From the sequence record PQ356294.1: a DNA stretch of 64,000 nt. One strand, given 5' to 3'. Positions 2,863-44,908 of the stretch are shown in pieces. How positions within the stretch are numbered: position 1 is the first letter of the stretch; each line of letters begins with the position of its first letter. Source of the DNA: Escherichia phage Ec_YwIITB1. The notes under the pieces were generated by a model, which did no database searches, was not told the DNA's origin, and worked only from the letters and a program-made list of their open reading frames with translations. Position numbers and translations under genes: made by a program.

Positions 2863-3336
2863 TTATTTGAATGATTTGACGTACTGAATAGAGCCTTTGC
2901 TATTCACGAAAGCGATTTTACCATTTTTGTTATACATGGTAGCAGTACGCTGATAACCATAAGTTTGTTTACCAGATTGATAACCAACTAATGCGAAATT
3001 ATCTTCACCCATTTTATTCTGCTTAGCGCGGATACGTTCATGACCGTGTGCCATAAGAACCTTAGCGTCGCCAGTTGCAATGGATCTACGAGTTTTTTCA
3101 TCTTCAACTGTATTAACAAAATCGTCAAATGAATCAAATTTAGCATGAGATTTATTATACAGTTTTCCATCTACTGCATAATTATATCCCTGTACATCCA
3201 TCTCAACTTCTGTACCATCATCCAATACAGCAGTGATTTTTTGACCTTTTTTAAATTTCAAAAGATCAGTAAAAGATTCAGCGATAATTTGAGAATTAAT
3301 AGCTGCTTCAGTGATAAATTCTTGATATGTTTTCAT
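2863..3336 (-). CDS. internal head protein (capsid-targeting-sequence family, IPII/IPIII-like)
   Basis: N-terminus MKTYQEFITEA matches the T4 internal-protein capsid targeting sequence ending in a gp21-type LxE site; located beside denV and e as ipII/ipIII are in T4. Confidence 0.7.
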   Translation of the reverse strand: MKTYQEFITEAAINSQIIAESFTDLLKFKKGQKITAVLDDGTEVEMDVQGYNYAVDGKLYNKSHAKFDSFDDFVNTVEDEKTRRSIATGDAKVLMAHGHERIRAKQNKMGEDNFALVGYQSGKQTYGYQRTATMYNKNGKIAFVNSKGSIQYVKSFK

Positions 3337-3345
3337 GTGTTTCCT

Positions 3346-3762
3346 TTAAATGTAAATAGTTTTACCGTAGTATTTATACCAGTATGGCTTCATTAAAATT
3401 TTTTCATAGAGTCGTTGTTGACTCAATTTAATAGCTGATTTGCATGGATTATAATCATTTTTCCATTCTGCTGGAATATCGCTGATGTCAGGAACTTCAG
3501 TATCTTTTATACTAAACCCACGTTTTAAGCATTCCATTATAATGTCTGATTGACGCTTTCGCAAAAATTCTAACTTATCGTAAAAGAACGTGACATGACC
3601 AGAACCTAAAATAAACTCGGAAGATATTTTAAAATCTTTAACCCGTTTACCATTTGCCACGTGTTTACGAACTATACCAAAAACACGTGGCAATTCACGG
3701 TATTCCGCAATTAAATGTTGGTCAGCAAGTTCAGATACTAAAGTCAAATTAATACGAGTCAT
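3346..3762 (-). CDS. denV: endonuclease V (pyrimidine dimer DNA glycosylase)
   Basis: 138 aa, [17 protein letters not shown]...[10 protein letters not shown]...WYKYYGK matches T4 EndoV nearly throughout. Confidence 0.95.
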
Positions 3763-3821
3763 TTTATCTCTCCAAGTAACTGTGAATATACTATCGCAGT
3801 TTTAGGAGAAAATAAATAACT

Positions 3822-4352
<531 letters not shown>

Positions 4353-8172: not shown

Positions 8173-8202
8173 ATAGTACCATGGAAGAACAGAGATGTAA
8201 AC
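8173..8202 (-). promoter_or_regulatory. T4-type early promoter
   Basis: Minus strand aaaacgGTTTACa-N18-TACTAT upstream of gene 7866..8129. Confidence 0.5.
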
Positions 8203-8323
8203 CGTTTTGTGAAAAAAAGTTTTAGGGAATTCTGGGGCAGGGAGGGGCAATTAAAAGGTAGGATAATATATTATAAAGGGTATAAACTAAATGATGCCTA
8301 GAAAGGCCCAGAAAGGCCTAGAT

Positions 8324-8351
8324 ACCAAAAAGCCCTATCATTTAGATAGGG
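8324..8351 (-). terminator. intrinsic terminator hairpin
   Basis: Inverted repeat ccctatc/gataggg followed on the minus strand by a T-run, just after the stop of gene 8360..8923. Confidence 0.55.
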
Positions 8352-8359
8352 ATTTAAAA

Positions 8360-8923
8360 TTATTTATCTAGTTTAGTTATTATAGCTTCTGCAGCAGCTT
8401 TTAGCTTAGATGCGGTGTTAATACGATTTTTAATTTCAGTATACGCGTCGCCAAGAACATCAAGGCTATCAGAATAAACACTTACACTATTGCGTTCGCT
8501 ATTTGAAATAGAACCTTTAGTTTTGCGGTCAAAATCGGTGTACACGTCTTGAAGATCGCGGGCTGCCTTCTTTGCATCATCCAATGCATCAAGAGCTTTA
8601 TTCAAAGCATTAACGTATTTTTTAGTGTCGAACATATTCTTAGAAATTTTAACAGGTGCGCGTTCAGGAGTAGCTAACACAGATTTAGGAACCTGAGCAC
8701 CAGATGCCAATTTCTTGGAAATTTTGAAAAATGCTTTATTGAATTTATTTTCTTGACTCATTGTAAAAGAACTATTATCGATGTTGTACATTTCAATAGC
8801 TTTAGCTTTCCACTTAAGAAAATCGCCGCGGTCTTTTGGGTCCAAGTGGAAGAATACTTTAGTAAGATCTGCTTCAGATGGTAATTTTGCTGCTTCGGTT
8901 AAAAATTCGGCATAGGTTTTCAT
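8360..8923 (-). CDS. internal head protein-like (capsid-targeting-sequence family)
   Basis: N-terminus MKTYAEFLTEAA matches the T4 internal-protein targeting sequence; 187 aa. Confidence 0.65.
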   Translation of the reverse strand: MKTYAEFLTEAAKLPSEADLTKVFFHLDPKDRGDFLKWKAKAIEMYNIDNSSFTMSQENKFNKAFFKISKKLASGAQVPKSVLATPERAPVKISKNMFDTKKYVNALNKALDALDDAKKAARDLQDVYTDFDRKTKGSISNSERNSVSVYSDSLDVLGDAYTEIKNRINTASKLKAAAEAIITKLDK

Positions 8924-9011
8924 TTAAAATCCTTGAAATAATTTATCGGTTGGTTATTAATTATTTATTACTTTGTTATTATCCGTAACAGCATTCTATA
9001 TGTGATTCAAA

Positions 9012-9041
9012 CTAAAAAGCCCCAACCTTTTGGTCAGGGCT
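9012..9041 (-). terminator. intrinsic terminator hairpin
   Basis: agccccaacc-tttt-ggtcagggct hairpin followed on the minus strand by TTTTT, after the stop of gene 9049..9522. Confidence 0.55.
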
Positions 9042-9048
9042 AAGAATG

Positions 9049-9522
9049 TTATTTGATTTGTTTAGCAGACCAAATGCGGTCTTTAATAATTTTTTGGATG
9101 TCTTCAACATACTCAAGAGAGTGAACATGTGGATTATCTTTGAAACTATAAGCACGGGCTAGCTTTTGGCCTTCGGTTTTGATTACTAAAAGCTCTTTAA
9201 GGATAGCTTCATATTTAGAGATAATTCCTTTAACGATATTTTTTTCTTGTGCAGCTTTAGGATCTGCTTTAGGAGCAGGTTTACCCGAAGCCTTTGCAAA
9301 AGCAGCGCCAGTAGCAACTAAACTTTTCCAGGCCATACTAACTGCATTTCCAGTAAATCCTTCTGCTTTCATGTCGCGAGCAAATTGGAATCGTGATTCG
9401 TCAGAAGCATCTTTATAGGAATATTTACCCGCTGCAATGGCTGCTTTTGCGACAGCTTGAATTTCGGTGCTAGATGCTTCATTTAACACCGCTTCATTTA
9501 AAAATTGAGCATATGATTTCAT
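9049..9522 (-). CDS. internal head protein-like (capsid-targeting-sequence family)
   Basis: N-terminus MKSYAQFLNEAV; AGGAAA RBS; 157 aa. Confidence 0.6.
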   Translation of the reverse strand: MKSYAQFLNEAVLNEASSTEIQAVAKAAIAAGKYSYKDASDESRFQFARDMKAEGFTGNAVSMAWKSLVATGAAFAKASGKPAPKADPKAAQEKNIVKGIISKYEAILKELLVIKTEGQKLARAYSFKDNPHVHSLEYVEDIQKIIKDRIWSAKQIK

Positions 9523-9562
9523 CTTATTTCCTGTTTTAATTCGTGGATTTAATATACTACTG

Positions 9563-9570
9563 TATTTATA
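9563..9570 (-). promoter_or_regulatory. late promoter
   Basis: Minus strand TATAAATA about 40 nt upstream of the ATG at 9522. Confidence 0.5.
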
Positions 9571-9600
9571 CTAAAAAGCCCCAACCTTTCGGTCGGGGCT
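9571..9600 (-). terminator. intrinsic terminator hairpin downstream of the tRNA region
   Basis: agccccaacc-tttc-ggtcggggct hairpin followed on the minus strand by TTTTT; near-copy of the hairpin at 9012..9041. Confidence 0.55.
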
Positions 9601-9916
9601 AAGCCTTGCGGCAACCTTGTCGGGGTTCCACCTGCTAAGGCAAGTGTTTGTACGAAACGCCGGGATTTGAACCCGGTTATTAAGCAGTTGACGCTACTCA
9701 ATATTTTTAAAAGGCCATATCTCAACCATATCCGAACGTTCCGTCAAAAACGCTACTCGGCTTACAGCAAAAATATTTCCTCGAATCGATAATTCTGTGC
9801 GCCGTTTCAGCTGTGATGTAAGGGGACATTAACAGATCGTAAAGATTTGTTAATGCCAGTCCTTACCCAGGGAACATCAGTCCGACGACTTACCGGTAGC
9901 GACCCGGTTTCTTGTT

Positions 9917-9992
9917 TGGTCGAGGCAGTAGGGATCGAACCTACGACCTAGGACTTAGAAGGTCCTTGCTCTTCCTTCTGAGCTATGCCTCG
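9917..9992 (-). tRNA. tRNA-Arg (anticodon UCU)
   Basis: Manual cloverleaf: acceptor CGAGGCA/TGCCTCG, D stem GCTC/GAGC, anticodon loop CTTCTAA, T arm GTAGG-TTCGATC-CCTAC, encoded CCA. Confidence 0.85.
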
Positions 9993-10161
9993 AACCCATG
10001 ACTACGAGAATCACAATCTCGAGTTCTACCAACTGAACTACGGCCACATTAATACCTACTCCAACAATCAAGATGTCTTCACACGAAATTAAGAGAAGAG
10101 TGATCAGTTCAACCCCTATAATCGCGTCAAGTAGATATTAATGTGACAGTTGTCACAAATT
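9993..10161 (-). ncRNA. tRNA-like structured RNA (candidate counterpart of T4 stable RNA species 1/2)
   Basis: The 53 nt next to tRNA-Arg fold as acceptor strand GTGGCCG, D arm GTTC/GAAC, perfect anticodon arm CGAGA-TTGTGAT-TCTCG (GUG) and T-stem 5' strand, then run directly into tRNA-Arg with no T-stem 3' strand or acceptor 3' strand; hairpin tgtgaca/tgtcaca at 10141..10160. Confidence 0.4.
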
Positions 10162-11966: not shown

Positions 11967-12224
11967 TTATTTTAAATCTTCTAATCGTTTCTTCATCTTA
12001 GAACCATTTTTAGCAATTTCTCCTGCATCGGAGCATAACGCTAAAAGTGCTTTAACTTTAGTTTGGTCTCCTTTAAAAGATGAAGGATTGACCGCAGCAG
12101 CAAGTTCTTTAATACGAGAGAAAAGACGCTCAGCTTCAGCTAAAGCCATTCCAAGCTTTACTTCCATACCGTGGGAAGATTCAGTGATAGTAGTTTTTGT
12201 AGCAAACTCTTTGAAAGTTTTCAT
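11967..12224 (-). CDS. internal protein I-like small capsid-targeted protein
   Basis: 85 aa, N-terminus MKTFKEFATK...TE resembles the internal-protein targeting sequence; sits where ipI sits in T4 (between tRNAs and 57B). Confidence 0.55.
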   Translation of the reverse strand: MKTFKEFATKTTITESSHGMEVKLGMALAEAERLFSRIKELAAAVNPSSFKGDQTKVKALLALCSDAGEIAKNGSKMKKRLEDLK

Positions 12225-12982: not shown

Positions 12983-13707
12983 TATAGTACCTTTAGTGTA
13001 TTTTTAATTTTAGAAAAAAGTTCTTCAAGAGAACCATCGTTTGTAATTACTAAATCGCCATCACGAATTGGCAATCCAGCTTCTGTAATATGTGTATCAT
13101 TGGATTTTTGACCAGGACGAACTACATGAATTACTGTAGCACCCATCGCCCTAGCCGCATCCATTTCATGATCTTGACGGGTATCAGGAACGATATAATA
13201 ATCATAACCTGAGTTAAATTTATCAAGATAATCTAAAGCAAATAATTTTACCCAATACATGCGGTCGAAGTTATTAACAATCAAATCCGTACCTAGGGCT
13301 TGCATCAGACGACGGATTGACCATTGATCTTCAATATTATTTATAACGTCAGCAATCTTGTTAAATGCTACGAAATTAATTGATTCTTTTCCTTCGTCGT
13401 CAAAAACAAACACACCTTTAATCGGGCTTTTACTATTAAGATAGCAAAATGCTTGTTCCATAATCGTAATTACTTCTAATTTAGTCAGATTTAAATTAGT
13501 CTCACGATCATAGTCAATTCCTTCAAACTCTCTACGAGTTAAGCAAGGATAGTCAGTGTTTGCTGCAAATACACCCCATGCATAGGCCAATGCATCCTTA
13601 ATAGGACCAGCAAGTTGATATTTAACTGCAGAATAATTATTCATGATAAAATCTGCAGTAGTATCTTTTCCACTACGCTTTACACCACTTAAAAAGATCA
13701 GTTTCAT
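12982..13707 (-). CDS. 1: deoxynucleoside monophosphate kinase
   Basis: 241 aa, MKLIFLSGVKRSGKDT P-loop; matches T4 gp1 in length and N-terminus. Confidence 0.95.
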
Positions 13708-13756
13708 ATGTTTCTCCTCAAATTTAGTTAAGATTATAACACATGAAACTGAAGCA

Positions 13757-14287
13757 TTAAACTTCTGCTATAATTTTACCATCTTTTTCTACTTGAAAAT
13801 ACGTATAAGGAATCGTTGCTGTGCATACTAAGGCTGGGTCTGAATCTTCCGTGTAGCTAAATTCTACTTCAGACAGGTCAGAAACCCAAGGCTTATAAAA
13901 ATTTATTGACATCACGATTTCAGTTTTGCTATTATCTAAAATGTAAAGCGTAATGTATTCAGGACCTGTTTTTTGGGCAGTATTTTCGCCTGTAAGATAG
14001 TTACTAGTTCCTAGCATCCATTCATACATTCCTATCCACGACTTAAGCTCTTCGTCAACTATAAATCTCACGATGAGTGGATCGTATTCAAATGTAACTC
14101 CTGGACGTTGTGCTCTGCCTAGTCCAAACGGCCCAGTCACGGTATCAGTAACAGGTATCCTAATTCCTGGAATAGGAACTGACTGAGCATTTAAAGTAAA
14201 AGCAGATGTAGTATTACTATGTGGTATTGATACTACAAAGTTAGTTGTATTTGCTTGGTTAAAAATTTGTTGCAGTGCTTGCGACAT
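13757..14287 (-). CDS. 3: gp3 tail completion and sheath stabilizer
   Basis: ORF track begins at TTG 14368; ATG (MSQALQQIFNQ...) at 14287 gives 176 aa, the T4 gp3 length. Confidence 0.85.
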   Translation of the reverse strand: MSQALQQIFNQANTTNFVVSIPHSNTTSAFTLNAQSVPIPGIRIPVTDTVTGPFGLGRAQRPGVTFEYDPLIVRFIVDEELKSWIGMYEWMLGTSNYLTGENTAQKTGPEYITLYILDNSKTEIVMSINFYKPWVSDLSEVEFSYTEDSDPALVCTATIPYTYFQVEKDGKIIAEV

Positions 14288-39560: not shown

Positions 39561-41185
<1,625 letters not shown>

Positions 41186-41186
<1 letters not shown>

Positions 41187-41425
41187 TGGAAGGTTTAATT
41201 GAAGCTATTAAATCAAACGACCTCGTAGCCGCTCGTAAATTATTTGCTGAAGCCATGGCTGCAAGAACGACTGATTTAATTAAAGAAGAAAAAATCGCTA
41301 TCGCTCGTAATTTCTTAATCGAAGGTGAAGAACCTGATGACGAGGATGATGACGAAGACGAAGATAGTGATGATAAAGACGACAAAAAAGACAAAGACTC
41401 TGACGAAGACGAGGATGATGAATAA
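41186..41425 (+). CDS. 67: gp67 prohead core protein
   Basis: 79 aa, [20 protein letters not shown] with acidic D/E-rich C-terminus as in T4 gp67. Confidence 0.9.
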
Positions 41426-41850
41426 TGCTTCTGATCCCTGAAACTCATGAATTGGTTCTCGAGAATGTCGAAGCACTTATTCCTGAAGCACAGGGTCGCT
41501 TTGACGAATTGTCTTCTGCTTTAAATAAAGACGATATAAATACAATTGTCGAGAATATGCTTGATGATGAAACTGATTTAGCGGTTGCATTAGCTTCTAT
41601 TAATGAAAATATGCCGTTAAATGAATTTATCGTTAAACATGTTTCTGCCCGTGGTGAAATTACTCGCACCAAAGATCGCAAAACCCGCGAACGTAATGCA
41701 TTTCAAACTACCGGGTTGTCTAAAGCAAAACGTAGACAAATTGCTCGTAAAGCTACCAAAACGAAGATTGCCAATCCAGCAGGTCAATCTCGTGCTCAGC
41801 GTAAGCGTAAAAAAGCTCTTAAACGCCGTAAAGCATTAGGATTAAGCTAA
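41425..41850 (+). CDS. 68: gp68 prohead core protein
   Basis: 141 aa, T4 gp68 length and position. Confidence 0.85.
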
Positions 41851-42488
41851 TGAATGAACCCCAATTACTAATTGAAACTTGGGGTCAACCTGGCGAAATT
41901 ATTGATGGCGTACCAATGCTTGAATCTCATGATGGAAAAGACTTAGGTTTAAAACCGGGTTTATACATCGAAGGAATATTCATGCAAGCGGAAGTCGTCA
42001 ATAGAAATAAACGTCTTTATCCAAAACGTATATTAGAAAAAGCGGTAAAAGACTATATTAATGAGCAAGTTTTAACTAAACAAGCTCTCGGAGAATTAAA
42101 TCATCCTCCACGCGCTAATGTTGACCCGATGCAAGCCGCTATCATTATAGAAGATATGTGGTGGAAAGGAAATGACGTATACGGACGAGCTCGTGTTATT
42201 GAAGGTGACCACGGTCCTGGAGATAAATTAGCAGCTAATATTCGTGCCGGATGGATTCCAGGAGTTTCTTCTCGTGGATTAGGTTCATTGACTGACACAA
42301 ATAAAGGTTATCGTATCGTAAACGAAGGATTCAAATTAACTGTAGGTGTTGATGCAGTATGGGGTCCAAGTGCTCCAGATGCATGGGTAACTCCTAAGGA
42401 AATTACCGAATCACAGACGGCGGAAGCCGATACAAGTGCCGATGACGCCTATATGGCTCTCGCAGAGGCCATGAAAAAAGCGTTATAA
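41850..42488 (+). CDS. 21: gp21 prohead core scaffold protease
   Basis: 212 aa, T4 gp21 length and position. Confidence 0.9.
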   Translation: MNEPQLLIETWGQPGEIIDGVPMLESHDGKDLGLKPGLYIEGIFMQAEVVNRNKRLYPKRILEKAVKDYINEQVLTKQALGELNHPPRANVDPMQAAIIIEDMWWKGNDVYGRARVIEGDHGPGDKLAANIRAGWIPGVSSRGLGSLTDTNKGYRIVNEGFKLTVGVDAVWGPSAPDAWVTPKEITESQTAEADTSADDAYMALAEAMKKAL

Positions 42489-42518
42489 ATATTATTATCT
42501 AAACAACAGGACTACAAA

Positions 42519-43328
42519 ATGCTTAAAGAACAACTGATTGCTGAAGCGCAAAAAATTGATGCTTCCGTTGCTCTTGATAGTATTTTCGAATCAGTTAATA
42601 TTTCTCCGGAAGCAAAAGAAACTTTCGGCACTGTATTCGAAGCTACCGTCAAGCAGCACGCCGTTAAATTAGCTGAATCTCATATCGCTAAAATTGCTGA
42701 AAAAGCAGAAGAAGAAGTAGAAAAAAATAAAGAAGAAGCCGAAGAAAAAGCTGAGAAGAAAATCGCTGAGCAAGCTTCTAAATTCATCGACCATCTTGCA
42801 AAAGAATGGCTCGCTGAAAATAAATTAGCAGTTGATAAAGGCATCAAAGCCGAACTATTTGAATCCATGCTTGGTGGATTAAAAGAGCTCTTTGTTGAAC
42901 ACAACGTTGTTGTTCCAGAAGAATCAGTTGATGTTGTAGCTGAAATGGAAGAAGAGCTGCAAGAACATAAAGAAGAATCAGCTCGTCTGTTCGAAGAACT
43001 CAATAAGCGTGACGCATATATCAATTATGTGCAGCGTGAAGTGGCATTGAGCGAAAGTACTAAAGATCTGACTGAGTCTCAAAAAGAAAAAGTCTCTGCT
43101 CTGGTCGAAGGTATGGATTATTCAGATGCATTCTCAAGTAAATTGAGTGCCATCGTAGAAATGGTGAAGAAGTCTAATAAAGATGAAAGCACTATTACTG
43201 AGGGTATAAATACTCCTGATACTGAAGCAGCCGGACTGAATTTCGTCACTGAAGCTGTAGAAGATAAAACTGCACCTGGTGCAGAAGATATTGTAAGTGT
43301 ATATGCGAAAGTCGCATCTCGTTTCTAA
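42519..43328 (+). CDS. 22: gp22 prohead core scaffold protein
   Basis: 269 aa, acidic coiled-coil, T4 gp22 length and position. Confidence 0.9.
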   Translation: MLKEQLIAEAQKIDASVALDSIFESVNISPEAKETFGTVFEATVKQHAVKLAESHIAKIAEKAEEEVEKNKEEAEEKAEKKIAEQASKFIDHLAKEWLAENKLAVDKGIKAELFESMLGGLKELFVEHNVVVPEESVDVVAEMEEELQEHKEESARLFEELNKRDAYINYVQREVALSESTKDLTESQKEKVSALVEGMDYSDAFSSKLSAIVEMVKKSNKDESTITEGINTPDTEAAGLNFVTEAVEDKTAPGAEDIVSVYAKVASRF

Positions 43329-43346: not shown

Positions 43347-44908
43347 ATGACTATCAAAACTAAAGCTGAACTTTTGAACAAATGGAAGCCATTACTGGAA
43401 GGTGAAGGTTTACCGGAAATTGCTAATAGCAAACAAGCGATTATCGCTAAAATCTTTGAAAACCAGGAAAAAGATTTCCAGACAGCTCCAGAGTACAAAG
43501 ACGAAAAAATCGCCCAGGCGTTCGGTTCTTTCTTAACAGAAGCTGAAATCGGTGGTGACCACGGTTACAACGCTACTAACATTGCTGCTGGTCAGACTTC
43601 TGGCGCAGTAACTCAGATTGGCCCAGCTGTTATGGGTATGGTACGTCGTGCTATTCCTAACCTGATTGCTTTCGATATTTGCGGTGTTCAGCCGATGAAT
43701 AGCCCGACTGGCCAGGTATTTGCACTGCGTGCAGTATATGGTAAAGACCCAATCGCTGCTGATGCTAAAGAAGCATTCCACCCAATGTATGGTCCAGATG
43801 CAATGTTCTCTGGTCAGGGTGCTGCTAAGAAATTCGCGCTAGCACACAAACTACTGTAAGTTGGAACCATTTACACCTATTTCTTCCAGGAAACTGGTAC
43901 TGTATATCTGCAAGCTACCTCTAGTTAAAGCAAATTGATACAAGTGCTTCTGACGCAGCTAAATTAGATGCTGAAATTAAGAAACAAATGGAAGCTGGCG
44001 TATTGGTAGAAATCGCTGAAGGTATGGCTACTTCTATCGCTGAACTTCAGGAAGGTTTCAACGGTTCTACCGATAACCCATGGAATGAAATGGGATTCCG
44101 TATCGATAAACAAGTTATCGAAGCTAAATCTCGTCAGCTGAAAGCTGCTTACTCTATCGAATTAGCACAAGACCTCCGCGCTGTTCACGGTATGGATGCT
44201 GATGCTGAACTGTCTGGTATTCTGGCTACCGAAATCATGCTGGAAATCAACCGTGAAGTTGTTGATTGGATTAACTACTCAGCTCAGGTTGGTAAATCTG
44301 GTATGACCCTGACTCCGGGTTCTAAAGCTGGTGTATTTGACTTCCAGGATCCGATTGATATTCGCGGTGCTCGCTGGGCAGGTGAATCCTTTAAAGCTCT
44401 GTTGTTCCAGATTGACAAAGAAGCAGTTGAAATTGCTCGTCAGACCGGTCGTGGTGAAGGTAACTTCATTATCGCTTCCCGTAACGTAGTTAACGTTCTG
44501 GCTTCAGTTGATACTGGCATTTCTTATGCTGCACAGGGTCTGGCTACCGGCTTTAACACTGATACTACCAAGTCAGTATTTGCTGGTGTTCTGGGTGGTA
44601 AATACCGTGTATACATCGACCAGTATGCTAAACAGGATTATTTCACTGTAGGTTATAAAGGTCCGAACGAAATGGATGCTGGTATTTACTACGCTCCATA
44701 TGTAGCTCTGACTCCGCTGCGTGGTTCCGATCCGAAGAACTTCCAACCGGTAATGGGATTCAAAACTCGTTACGGTATCGGTATCAACCCATTTGCAGAA
44801 TCCGCTGCTCAGGCTCCGGCTTCTCGCATCCAAAGCGGTATGCCTTCTATTCTTAATAGCCTTGGTAAAAACGCTTACTTCCGCCGTGTATATGTTAAAG
44901 GTATCTAA
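43347..44908 (+). CDS. 23: gp23 major capsid protein, frame-disrupted in this sequence
   Basis: ORFs 43347..43859 (170 aa, MTIKTKAELLNKWKPLLEGEG...) and 43988..44908 (306 aa, ...MEAGVLVEIAEGMATSIAELQEGFNG... to YFRRVYVKGI) match the N- and C-terminal parts of T4 gp23; the 130 nt between them encodes the conserved middle in alternating frames with two in-frame TAA stops. Confidence 0.9.

What the first reader, a model, noticed from the sequence alone, without database searches (positions are those of the whole stretch)
8360..9522. Expanded, dispersed family of capsid-targeted internal-protein genes
Four genes in this window start with the internal-protein capsid targeting sequence (MKTYQEFITEA at 3336, MKTYAEFLTEAA at 8923, MKSYAQFLNEAV at 9522, MKTFKEFATK at 12224), while their bodies are unrelated to each other. 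Two sit in tandem between the e-region genes and the tRNAs, each with its own near-identical terminator hairpin (agccccaacc...ggggct at 9012..9041 and 9571..9600). Proteins with this leader are packaged in the head and injected with the DNA; T4 IPI is an anti-restriction protein, so these polymorphic cargo proteins are candidate anti-defence effectors.
Basis: partly seen in the sequence, partly recalled or inferred. Interest (0 to 1): 0.5.

Follow-up and report, generated by a model that had tools for sequence, protein, structure and literature searches.

The report
Third internal-protein gene locus in T4-like phage
Two neighbouring, unannotated genes of a T4-like phage carry the short signal that loads proteins into the phage head for injection, which would add a third site for such genes to the two described so far; the idea itself is well known.

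Summary
The window is a Tequatrovirus (T4-like) genome segment. Two are already named: 3336-2863 is Ip4 (100% identical to RB32 Ip4) and 12224-11967 is Ip5 (98.8%).

The tandem pair, P2 (9522-9049) and P1 (8923-8360), is called "hypothetical protein" in every record examined (RB32ORF133c, RB14ORF136, RB69ORF148c/149c). It lies outside the two ip loci described in the literature.

Each gene is a discrete cassette inserted exactly after the GGGCTTTTT of the terminator hairpin that closes the tRNA/rnaC unit:
- T4, T2 and T6 have the empty site.
- RB32 has P2 only; RB14 and RB69 have P1 only.
- This phage, ime09 and fPS-90 have both.

P2 has a consensus late promoter (TATAAATA) and P1 a near-consensus one. 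Both mature proteins are basic (pI about 9.5).

Both fall in phrog_2280, and their C-terminal halves align (hhalign 96.8%, E 2.4e-10).

Homologues with the same leader, hairpin and late promoter sit beside tRNA genes in Klebsiella and Yersinia phages.

Packaging and any anti-defence role remain inferred. This is a new member and new locus of a known kind.

The parts
9572..9600 (-). Terminator hairpin AGCCCCGACCGAAAGGTTGGGGCT plus T run. It closes the tRNA/rnaD/rnaC unit and is the attachment point for the cassettes.
   Evidence: Terminator scan. The same hairpin in T4, T2 and T6 is followed directly by GGTATCTAGGCC, the e.8 upstream region, which is the empty site.
9563..9570 (-). T4-type late promoter TATAAATA, 40 nt upstream of the P2 start codon
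   Evidence: It is annotated as a predicted late promoter in Yersinia phage fPS-90. The same hairpin-then-AGTATAAATA layout precedes the homologue in Klebsiella phage KP1.
9049..9522 (-). P2 gene, 157 aa, a candidate internal head protein (equivalent to RB32ORF133c). Layout: CTS MKSYAQFLNE, a small three-helix N-domain, a Pro/Lys/Ala-rich linker and a long helical hairpin.
   Evidence: It is 97.5% identical to RB32ORF133c. tblastn matches in 511 phage records; every record examined calls it hypothetical or leaves it unannotated.
9493..9522 (-). Codons 1-10 of P2, the capsid targeting sequence MKSYAQFLNE. Predicted gp21 cleavage after E10, with a second L-x-E site after E15.
   Evidence: The critical positions Y4, F7, L8 and E10 are kept (criteria from PMC9026906).
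9013..9041 (-). Terminator hairpin AGCCCTGACCAAAAGGTTGGGGCT plus T run at the end of the P2 cassette. It is an imperfect direct repeat of the hairpin at 9600-9572.
   Evidence: The RB32 GenBank note reads 'flanked by 34 bp imperfect direct repeat'.
8962..8969 (-). Near-consensus late promoter AATAAATA, 38 nt upstream of the P1 start codon. Function is inferred.
   Evidence: (A/G)ATAAATA is conserved at this position in fPS-90, RB69, ime09 and RB14.
8360..8923 (-). P1 gene, 187 aa, a candidate internal head protein (equivalent to RB14ORF136 and RB69ORF148c/149c). Layout: CTS MKTYAEFLTE, a helical N-domain, a Pro/Lys-rich linker and a long helical hairpin.
   Evidence: It is 98.4% identical to RB14ORF136. 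tblastn matches in 164 phage records; every record examined calls it hypothetical, 'phage protein' or leaves it unannotated.
8894..8923 (-). Codons 1-10 of P1, the capsid targeting sequence MKTYAEFLTE. Predicted gp21 cleavage after E10.
8327..8351 (-). Terminator hairpin CCCTATCTAAATGATAGGG plus T run at the end of the P1 cassette. After GGGCTTTTT the sequence rejoins the T4-like e.8 upstream region.
2863..3336 (-). Ip4, a known named internal protein of 157 aa, at the e/denV ip locus. Its late promoter TATAAATA is at 3378-3371.
   Evidence: 100% identical to RB32 Ip4. Matches PF24183 and phrog_3155 'internal virion protein'. Promoter.
11967..12224 (-). Ip5, a known named internal protein of 85 aa, at the ipI/57B locus. 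It has an IPI-type 15-residue leader ending in ITE.
   Evidence: 98.8% identical to RB32 Ip5. Matches phrog_3499 'internal head protein'. The cassette is flanked by a direct repeat of about 60 nt that holds an early promoter.
41850..42488 (+). gp21 prohead protease (Peptidase_S77), the enzyme expected to remove the CTS. The core genes gp67, gp68 and gp22 are adjacent at 41186-43328.
   Evidence: Pfam scan.

Best explanation
P2 (9522-9049) and P1 (8923-8360) are two unannotated members of the T4 internal-protein class. They form a third ip locus, immediately downstream of the tRNA/rnaC transcription unit.

**Proposed mechanism (inferred unless marked as shown)**
1. Each gene is a self-contained cassette of late promoter, Shine-Dalgarno site, CDS and terminator hairpin. 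The anatomy is shown by the sequence.
2. Each cassette is inserted exactly after the GGGCTTTTT of a resident terminator. It is gained or lost by recombination between these hairpin repeats. The four site states are shown; the recombination is inferred.
3. The proteins are made late in infection.
4. The 10-residue N-terminal leader docks them onto the gp22 scaffolding core of the prohead.
5. The gp21 protease cuts after Glu10 (FLTE|A and FLNE|A) and releases basic mature proteins of about 16-20 kDa.
6. These stay in the DNA-filled head and are injected with the genome.
7. By analogy with Ip1, Ip2 and Ip3, their most likely job is to neutralise a host defence at the moment of DNA entry.

P1 and P2 are distant paralogues. 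They share the leader, a Pro/Lys-rich linker and a C-terminal helical hairpin, and differ in a small N-terminal helical domain. That variable domain is a plausible specificity module.

The confidence of 0.6 applies to the claim that they are packaged, CTS-targeted internal proteins at a third locus. The anti-defence role on its own is less certain, at roughly 0.4.
For: **Leader**
- The CTS is present with the critical positions Y/F4, F7, L8 and E10 kept (criteria from PMC9026906).
- An L-x-E gp21-type site ends the leader.
- The leader codons differ at synonymous sites among the four genes, so it is the peptide that is conserved, not the DNA.
- The leader is the most conserved segment among eight divergent family members: 54% identity, against 44% for the N-domain, 40% for the linker and 21% for the C-domain.

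**Expression and composition**
- A consensus late promoter lies 40 nt upstream of P2, and a conserved (A/G)ATAAATA lies 38 nt upstream of P1.
- Mature pI is 9.46 for P1 and 9.50 for P2. Lysine makes up 14% of P1 and 13% of P2.
- gp20, gp67, gp68, gp21 and gp22 are encoded in the same window.

**Cassette behaviour**
- Junctions are precise and all four site states occur: none in T4, T2 and T6; P2 only in RB32; P1 only in RB14 and RB69; both in this window, ime09 and fPS-90.
- The block from e.8 through P1 to rnaC is 88-95% identical to RB69 at the DNA level, while flanking genes are 67-79% identical. This indicates recent exchange between genera.

**Conservation of the locus**
- In Klebsiella phage KP1 (Jiaodavirus) the homologue sits right after tRNA genes and behind a hairpin followed by AGTATAAATA.
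- Yersinia phage fHe-Yen9-01 (Tegunavirus) carries a tandem P1-like plus P2-like pair behind a hairpin and TATAAATA, with tRNAs upstream.
- A metagenomic relative shows the same arrangement.

**Paralogy**
- Both proteins hit phrog_2280.
- hhalign gives 96.8% probability and E 2.4e-10 over 94 columns.
- The two AlphaFold models have the same architecture.

**Precedent for function**
- Ip1, Ip2 and Ip3 each block a distinct GmrSD enzyme (PMC12373910).
Against: - There is no direct evidence of packaging, cleavage or injection. No virion proteomics for these ORFs turned up in the literature searches.
- P1 lacks a perfect late promoter.
- P1 is almost invariant, at 95.7% identity or more in 163 of 164 records. 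P2 is syntenic across several genera. That is less variable than expected for a front-line arms-race effector and fits a general structural or DNA-binding role as well.
- The predicted folds are only generic helical hairpins with no informative match. The P1 model has low confidence (pLDDT 61.5).
- The literature states that IP genes are confined to two loci (PMC2839356; PMC12373910). Either that statement is incomplete or these are not true IPs.
- T2, T4 and T6 do without them.
- The RB69 copy is frameshifted.
Confidence: 0.6

Rival explanations
1. They are packaged internal proteins, but their role is structural or physical rather than anti-defence. As lysine-rich polycations they would neutralise DNA charge, assist condensation or ejection, or help prohead core assembly as T4 IPIII does.
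For: - The composition is basic and lysine-rich, with an AKP-type disordered linker and long helical hairpins.
- The family keeps the same position across Tequatrovirus, Mosigvirus, Jiaodavirus and Tegunavirus.
- P1 is nearly invariant.
- NMR data show that lysines of the internal proteins contact DNA phosphates (PMC3012670).
- IPIII mutants assemble heads more slowly (PMC9026906).
Against: - The genes are dispensable, since T2, T4 and T6 lack both.
- They occur in all four presence/absence combinations. That pattern fits accessory adaptive cargo better than a core structural need.
- IPII and IPIII were also long thought to have no specific role, and both turned out to be specific GmrSD inhibitors (PMC12373910).
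Confidence: 0.22
2. They are not packaged at all. The CTS-like leader would be an inherited or recombination-derived N-terminus on cytoplasmic late proteins of unrelated function.
For: - There is no experimental evidence of virion association.
- The genes lie outside the two recognised ip loci.
- Expert annotators of RB14, RB32 and RB69 labelled the other Ips but left these as hypothetical.
Against: - The leader is conserved at the peptide level with different codons.
- It is the most conserved segment across homologues whose bodies are only 26-49% identical.
- Every functionally critical position is retained.
- In T4, a 10-residue CTS alone is enough to package foreign proteins (PMC9026906).
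Confidence: 0.1
3. The tandem arrangement is only a recent local duplication with no wider meaning, that is, a strain-specific oddity.
For: The genes are adjacent, share a leader and have near-identical flanking hairpins.
Against: - The bodies are too diverged for BLASTP to detect.
- Each cassette also occurs alone, in RB32 and in RB14.
- A P1-like plus P2-like pair already exists in a Tegunavirus.
- P2 homologues occur in Klebsiella phages.

Any duplication is therefore ancient.
Confidence: 0.03

Closest known systems
[quoted passage not shown]
   Same: - An N-terminal capsid targeting sequence ending in an (L/I)-x-E gp21 site.
- Small basic proteins with late promoters.
- Non-essential and polymorphic among T-even phages.
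- Expected to be injected with the DNA.
- Ip1-3 are specific inhibitors of GmrSD type IV restriction enzymes (PMC12373910).
   Different: - The mature domains show no detectable similarity; hhalign aligns little beyond the leader (10 columns against the P2 family, 31 low-probability N-terminal columns against the P1 family).
- The genes lie at a different locus, between e.8 and rnaC, rather than next to 57B or next to e/denV.
- Packaging and function are untested.
Ip4-Ip10 of T-even and RB phages (nomenclature of Repoila et al. 1994, as used in the RB32, RB14 and T6 GenBank records)
   Same: - They belong to the same class of CTS-bearing cassette genes.
- Two of them, Ip4 and Ip5, are actually present in this window.
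- Their cassettes are also flanked by direct repeats, for example the 43-bp repeat around Ip7/Ip9 in RB32 and the early-promoter repeat around Ip5 here.
   Different: - Those genes sit in the two classical loci and are flanked by early-promoter repeats.
- P1 and P2 are flanked by terminator hairpins, carry late promoters, belong to one conserved family (phrog_2280), and were never given an Ip name in any record examined.
PeSL regulatory cassettes (promoter-early stem-loops) of RB49 and phi1 (Arbiol et al. 2010, PMC2839356)
   Same: - Accessory genes are bounded by repeated regulatory motifs that contain a G/C-rich stem-loop (GGGG...CCCC).
- Recombination between the repeats explains precise insertion and deletion that leaves neighbouring transcription intact.
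   Different: - The repeat here is a terminator hairpin followed by a late promoter, not a sigma-70-like early promoter.
- Mini-circle formation was not tested.
Propeptide-targeted ejection (inner body) proteins of giant phages phiKZ and SPN3US
   Same: Head-internal cargo is targeted through N-terminal propeptides that the prohead protease removes at an x-x-E-type site (PMC5694885 and PMC9026906, listed).
   Different: The proteins, propeptides and capsid systems are unrelated. This is an analogy only.

Membership tests
T4-type internal (injected) head proteins defined by the CTS | An N-terminal capsid targeting sequence (MKTYQEFIAE type), with residues 4 and 7 needed for targeting | tested here: met
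   P1 starts MKTYAEFLTE and P2 starts MKSYAQFLNE. Y4 and F7 are kept (criteria from PMC9026906).
T4-type internal (injected) head proteins defined by the CTS | A gp21 protease site, (L/I)-x-E followed by the cut, at the end of the leader (residues 8 and 10) | tested here: met
   The sites are FLTE|A in P1 and FLNE|A in P2, with a second site VLNE|A in P2. This tests the sequence only; actual cleavage was not tested.
T4-type internal (injected) head proteins defined by the CTS | The cognate prohead core and protease (gp22, gp67, gp68, gp21) are encoded by the same phage | tested here: met
   The Pfam families Peptidase_S77, T4_CASP, GP67 and Portal_T4 match ORFs at 39600-43328.
T4-type internal (injected) head proteins defined by the CTS | Late (gp55-dependent, TATAAATA) transcription | tested here: inconclusive
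   P2 has a perfect TATAAATA at 9570-9563. P1 has only the conserved near-consensus AATAAATA at 8969-8962. No expression data are available.
T4-type internal (injected) head proteins defined by the CTS | A small, basic, lysine-rich mature protein | tested here: met
   The mature forms are 177 and 147 aa, with pI 9.46 and 9.50. The full-length proteins contain 27 and 21 lysines.
T4-type internal (injected) head proteins defined by the CTS | Non-essential and polymorphic among close relatives | tested here: met
   The site is empty in T4, T2 and T6. RB32 has P2 only, RB14 and RB69 have P1 only, and ime09, fPS-90 and this window have both.
T4-type internal (injected) head proteins defined by the CTS | Encoded in one of the two described ip loci (next to 57B, or next to e/denV) | tested here: not met
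   The genes lie between e.8 and rnaC and the tRNAs. The literature speaks of two loci only (PMC2839356; PMC12373910). This feature is a description of where IP genes have been found rather than a mechanistic requirement.
T4-type internal (injected) head proteins defined by the CTS | Physically present in the virion in processed form and injected with the DNA | not testable with these tools
   This needs virion mass spectrometry or N-terminal mapping. No such data turned up.
Ip-type inhibitors of GmrSD type IV restriction enzymes (Ip1*, Ip2, Ip3) | Homology of the mature domain to IPI*, IPII or IPIII | tested here: not met
   Tested directly only against T4 IPIII: hhalign aligns only the 10-residue leader to the P2 family, and 31 N-terminal columns at low probability to the P1 family. 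P1 and P2 fall in a different PHROG from Ip4, Ip5 and the other Ip families. IPI and IPII were not compared directly.
Ip-type inhibitors of GmrSD type IV restriction enzymes (Ip1*, Ip2, Ip3) | Specific inhibition of a GmrSD variant in vivo | not testable with these tools
   This needs plaque assays such as those in PMC12373910.
phrog_2280 (unknown function) | A full-length match to the family profile | tested here: met
   P1 scores E 9.7e-54 over residues 1-181. P2 scores E 7e-61 over residues 1-157.
PeSL or IP-associated early-promoter stem-loop cassettes | The cassette is flanked by repeated motifs that combine an early promoter with a stem-loop | tested here: not met
   The flanking repeats are terminator hairpins followed by a late promoter. 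No early promoter is present. The Ip5 cassette in this window does have early-promoter repeats.

The most novel reading that the evidence does not exclude
The locus between e.8 and rnaC is a genuine third ip locus that the field has overlooked. It would encode a conserved two-module family of injected proteins, with a variable N-terminal domain and a shared linker plus helical hairpin, spread across several Tevenvirinae genera. Its members would neutralise a host defence not covered by Ip1-10, either another GmrSD subtype or a non-restriction system. The terminator-hairpin repeats would act as a plug-in site for swapping such cargo genes.
Probability: 0.3. Interest if true: 0.6.

Novelty: new member of a known kind. 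Interest (0 to 1): 0.4.

Why it matters
Current accounts place IP genes in two loci. [quoted passage not shown] Another suggests that the genes in "the two Ip loci" all target GmrSD enzymes (PMC12373910).

A third locus adds untested candidates to the list of injected counter-defence proteins. It carries a conserved family with tblastn matches in 511 (P2) and 164 (P1) phage records, many of them therapeutic isolates. This comes just as the targets of Ip2 and Ip3 have been found and ip4-10 have failed to match any tested GmrSD.

The locus also shows a clean natural insertion site (GGGCTTTTT|) with ready-made late expression and termination signals. That could be useful for engineering CTS-mediated protein delivery. 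The gain is incremental rather than conceptual.

Tried and rejected
- **BLASTP and a shallow profile comparison of P1 against P2.** Only the 10-residue CTS aligned. I first accepted "unrelated bodies". I dropped that after adding divergent homologues from Yersinia, Klebsiella and metagenomes.
- **Protein family libraries.** Pfam and NCBIfam gave only sub-threshold noise for P1 and P2, such as cytochrome b562, ALIX and TraA.
- **Relationship to T4 IPIII.** Rejected.
- **Literature.** Searches for the ORF names RB69ORF148c/149c, RB32ORF133c and RB14ORF136 and their accessions found no papers. A search for virion proteomics of T4-like phages gave nothing relevant. One search on "Ip4/Ip5" was swamped by inositol-phosphate papers. 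The supplements of PMC12373910 held no matching leader sequences. Rifat et al. 2008 was not held. I did not look for Comeau et al. 2007, so I cannot exclude that its list of ">30 IP variants" includes these families.
- **Promoter for P1.** I found no convincing early (sigma-70) or MotA-type middle promoter (and reading).
- **Plus-strand ORFs inside 8360-9522.** These are 42-79 aa antisense ORFs. I did not pursue them.
- **Rfam.** There is no family for rnaC or rnaD, and nothing else turned up in the region.
Full report
**What the window is.** All genes discussed lie on the minus strand. The gene order is regB/vs genes, Ip4, denV, e, nudE, e.2-e.8, two ORFs, rnaC/rnaD, a tRNA cluster, trna.2-4, Ip5, 57B, 57A, 1, 3. 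This is the T4 order. The stretch 8200-9950 is 98% identical to Escherichia phage ime09 and Shigella phage ESh26, and it matches 739 phage records, mostly Tequatrovirus.

**Checking the observation.** A six-frame scan for ORFs starting MK[TSA][YFW]xx[FLIY] finds five.
- 3336: MKTYQEFITE
- 8923: MKTYAEFLTE
- 9522: MKSYAQFLNE
- 12224: MKTFKEFATKTTITE

The T4 leaders are MKTYQEFIAE for IPII and IPIII, and MKTFKEFTSTTTPVSTITE for IPI.

Mutational work summarised in PMC9026906 places targeting mainly at residues 4 and 7, and processing at residues 8 and 10. P1 and P2 keep Y4, F7, L8 and E10. The leader codons differ at synonymous positions among the four genes. What is conserved is therefore the peptide, not a patch of DNA.

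They lie at 9600-9577 and 9041-9018, each has 10 base pairs followed by a T run, and they differ at two positions.

**Two of the four genes are already known.**
- The 157-aa protein at 3336 is 100% identical to RB32 Ip4. It matches PF24183 and phrog_3155, "internal virion protein".
- The 85-aa protein at 12224 is 98.8% identical to RB32 Ip5. It matches phrog_3499, "internal head protein".

**The tandem pair is not annotated as Ip anywhere I looked.**
- P2 is RB32ORF133c, described as [quoted passage not shown].
- P1 is RB14ORF136, and also RB69ORF148c/149c, where it is frameshifted.
- tblastn finds P1 in 164 phage records and P2 in 511. Every listed record calls them hypothetical, "phage protein", or leaves them unannotated. 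The protein cluster names agree.
- No paper in the library mentions these ORFs.
- The literature describes two ip loci. Arbiol et al. [quoted passage not shown] Silas et al. 2025 speak of "the two Ip loci" (PMC12373910).

T2, T4 and T6, the phages in which IPs were studied, have neither gene. This probably explains the oversight.

**Anatomy of the locus.**

In T4, T2 and T6 the hairpin AGCCCCGACCGAAAGGTTGGGGCTTTTT follows rnaC. It is joined directly to GGTATCTAGGCC..., the region upstream of e.8.

In this window the same hairpin is followed by AGTATAAATA. This holds a consensus T4 late promoter, 40 nt before the P2 start codon. Next come the P2 CDS and a near-copy of the hairpin.

After that second hairpin come AGTTTGAATCAC and a conserved (A/G)ATAAATA, 38 nt before the P1 start codon. 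Then come the P1 CDS and a different hairpin that ends ATAGGGCTTTTT. The sequence then rejoins GGTATCTAGGCC.

- RB32 carries only the P2 cassette.
- RB14 and RB69 carry only the P1 cassette.
- ime09 and fPS-90 carry both.
- The junctions are identical in every case.

Each gene is therefore an autonomous unit of promoter, CDS and terminator, inserted exactly after GGGCTTTTT. Loss or gain by recombination between the hairpin repeats would give precisely the four states observed. That last step is an inference.

The hairpin at 9600-9577 belongs to the tRNA/rnaC unit and lies upstream of P2. P1's own terminator is a different hairpin.

The block from e.8 through P1 to rnaC is 88-95% identical to RB69 (a Mosigvirus) at the DNA level. 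Flanking genes are only 67-79% identical. The segment has therefore moved between genera recently.

**The pair is a family, not two unrelated bodies.**
- BLASTP and a shallow profile comparison align only the leader.
- Both proteins nevertheless match phrog_2280 over their full length.
- AlphaFold gives the two the same layout: leader helix, small helical N-domain, disordered Pro/Lys-rich linker and a long helical hairpin. Mean pLDDT is 73 for P2 and 61.5 for P1.
- Yersinia phage fHe-Yen9-01 has a tandem pair. gp154 aligns with P1 over its full length (24% identity, E 2e-4) and gp153 is a P2 homologue. Both start ML(Q/E)Y.EFLKE.
- After adding gp154 to the P1 alignment, and five divergent members from an exhaustive HMM search to the P2 alignment, hhalign aligns 94 columns. 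These cover the linker and the whole C-terminal hairpin, at 96.8% probability and E 2.4e-10. The low-complexity linker may inflate this score somewhat.
- The N-domains remain unrelated at this sensitivity.

**Conservation of context.**
- In Klebsiella phage KP1 (Jiaodavirus) the P2 homologue sits directly after tRNA-Arg, tRNA-Leu and tRNA-Thr. It lies behind AGCCCCGTCTTCGGACGGGGCTTTTT followed by AGTATAAATA, and it starts MKFKEFLAE.
- The Yersinia pair lies behind a hairpin plus TATAAATA, with tRNAs upstream.
- A metagenomic relative has tRNAs upstream and GATAAATA before the gene.
- Among eight divergent members the leader is the best conserved segment: 54% mean pairwise identity, against 44% for the N-domain, 40% for the linker and 21% for the C-domain. 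This argues that the leader is functional.

**Mechanism: shown versus inferred.**

Shown by sequence:
- the leader and its gp21-type site;
- the late-promoter motifs and terminators;
- basic mature proteins, with pI 9.46 for P1 and 9.50 for P2;
- gp21, gp22, gp67 and gp68 in the same window.

Inferred from T4 biology:
- late synthesis;
- docking on the scaffolding core through the leader;
- cleavage after E10;
- retention in the filled head and injection with the DNA.

Inferred by analogy only: a counter-defence role. The analogy has strengthened, because Ip1, Ip2 and Ip3 each inhibit one specific GmrSD type IV restriction enzyme, although ip4-10 matched none of the systems tested (PMC12373910).

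Against a classic arms-race effector, P1 is almost invariant, and the family is syntenic across genera. A general DNA-binding or assembly role therefore remains a serious rival.

Fold and sequence searches give no functional clue.

**Verdict.** What appears to be new is modest. Two unannotated candidate internal proteins form one family, sit at a third cassette-type locus next to the tRNA genes, and are widespread in T4-like phages. They are directly testable by virion proteomics and by the GmrSD panels that now exist.

Noticed in passing
window 43347-44908 (+): The major capsid gene 23 is broken into two ORFs, 43347-43859 and 43988-44908, with several frame switches and stop codons within about 43850-43925. 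Close relatives have an intact 1585-nt gene against 1581 nt here. This looks like sequencing or assembly error rather than biology.
   Followed up: partly
window 9976-10048 (-): ARAGORN calls a tRNA-His that overlaps tRNA-Arg (9917-9992). Rfam does not support it even at E values up to 1. About 170 nt lie between tRNA-Arg and tRNA-Asn here, whereas the two are 4 nt apart in RB14.
   Followed up: partly
window 12306-12240 and 11979-11913 (-): The Ip5 cassette is flanked by a direct repeat of about 60 nt, TTTAAAATAATTTCACAAAGTTGTTTACAT...TGATACTATTACC. It contains a T4 early-type promoter. This is a different boundary type from the terminator hairpins around P1 and P2, and it matches the repeat notes in the RB32 record.
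   Followed up: partly
window 2863-4316 (-): The gene order here is e, denV, Ip4, whereas T4 has e, ipIII, ipII, denV. The Ip4 late promoter TATAAATA (3378-3371) lies inside the 3' end of denV.
   Followed up: no
window about 9916-9920; L004 (ime09) 2212-2562: ime09 and T2 carry an extra gene of about 350 bp (RB69ORF150c-like) just before tRNA-Arg. It is absent from this window, which is another insertion/deletion polymorphism next to the cassette site.
   Followed up: no
L003 (RB69) 13429-13991: The RB69 copy of P1 is split by a frameshift into ORF148c and ORF149c. It is either a pseudogene or a sequencing error in the reference genome.
   Followed up: partly
window 9601-9916 (-): Homologues of the T4 stable RNAs rnaD and rnaC (species 2 and species 1 RNA) are present by alignment to T4, but no Rfam family covers them.
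   Followed up: partly
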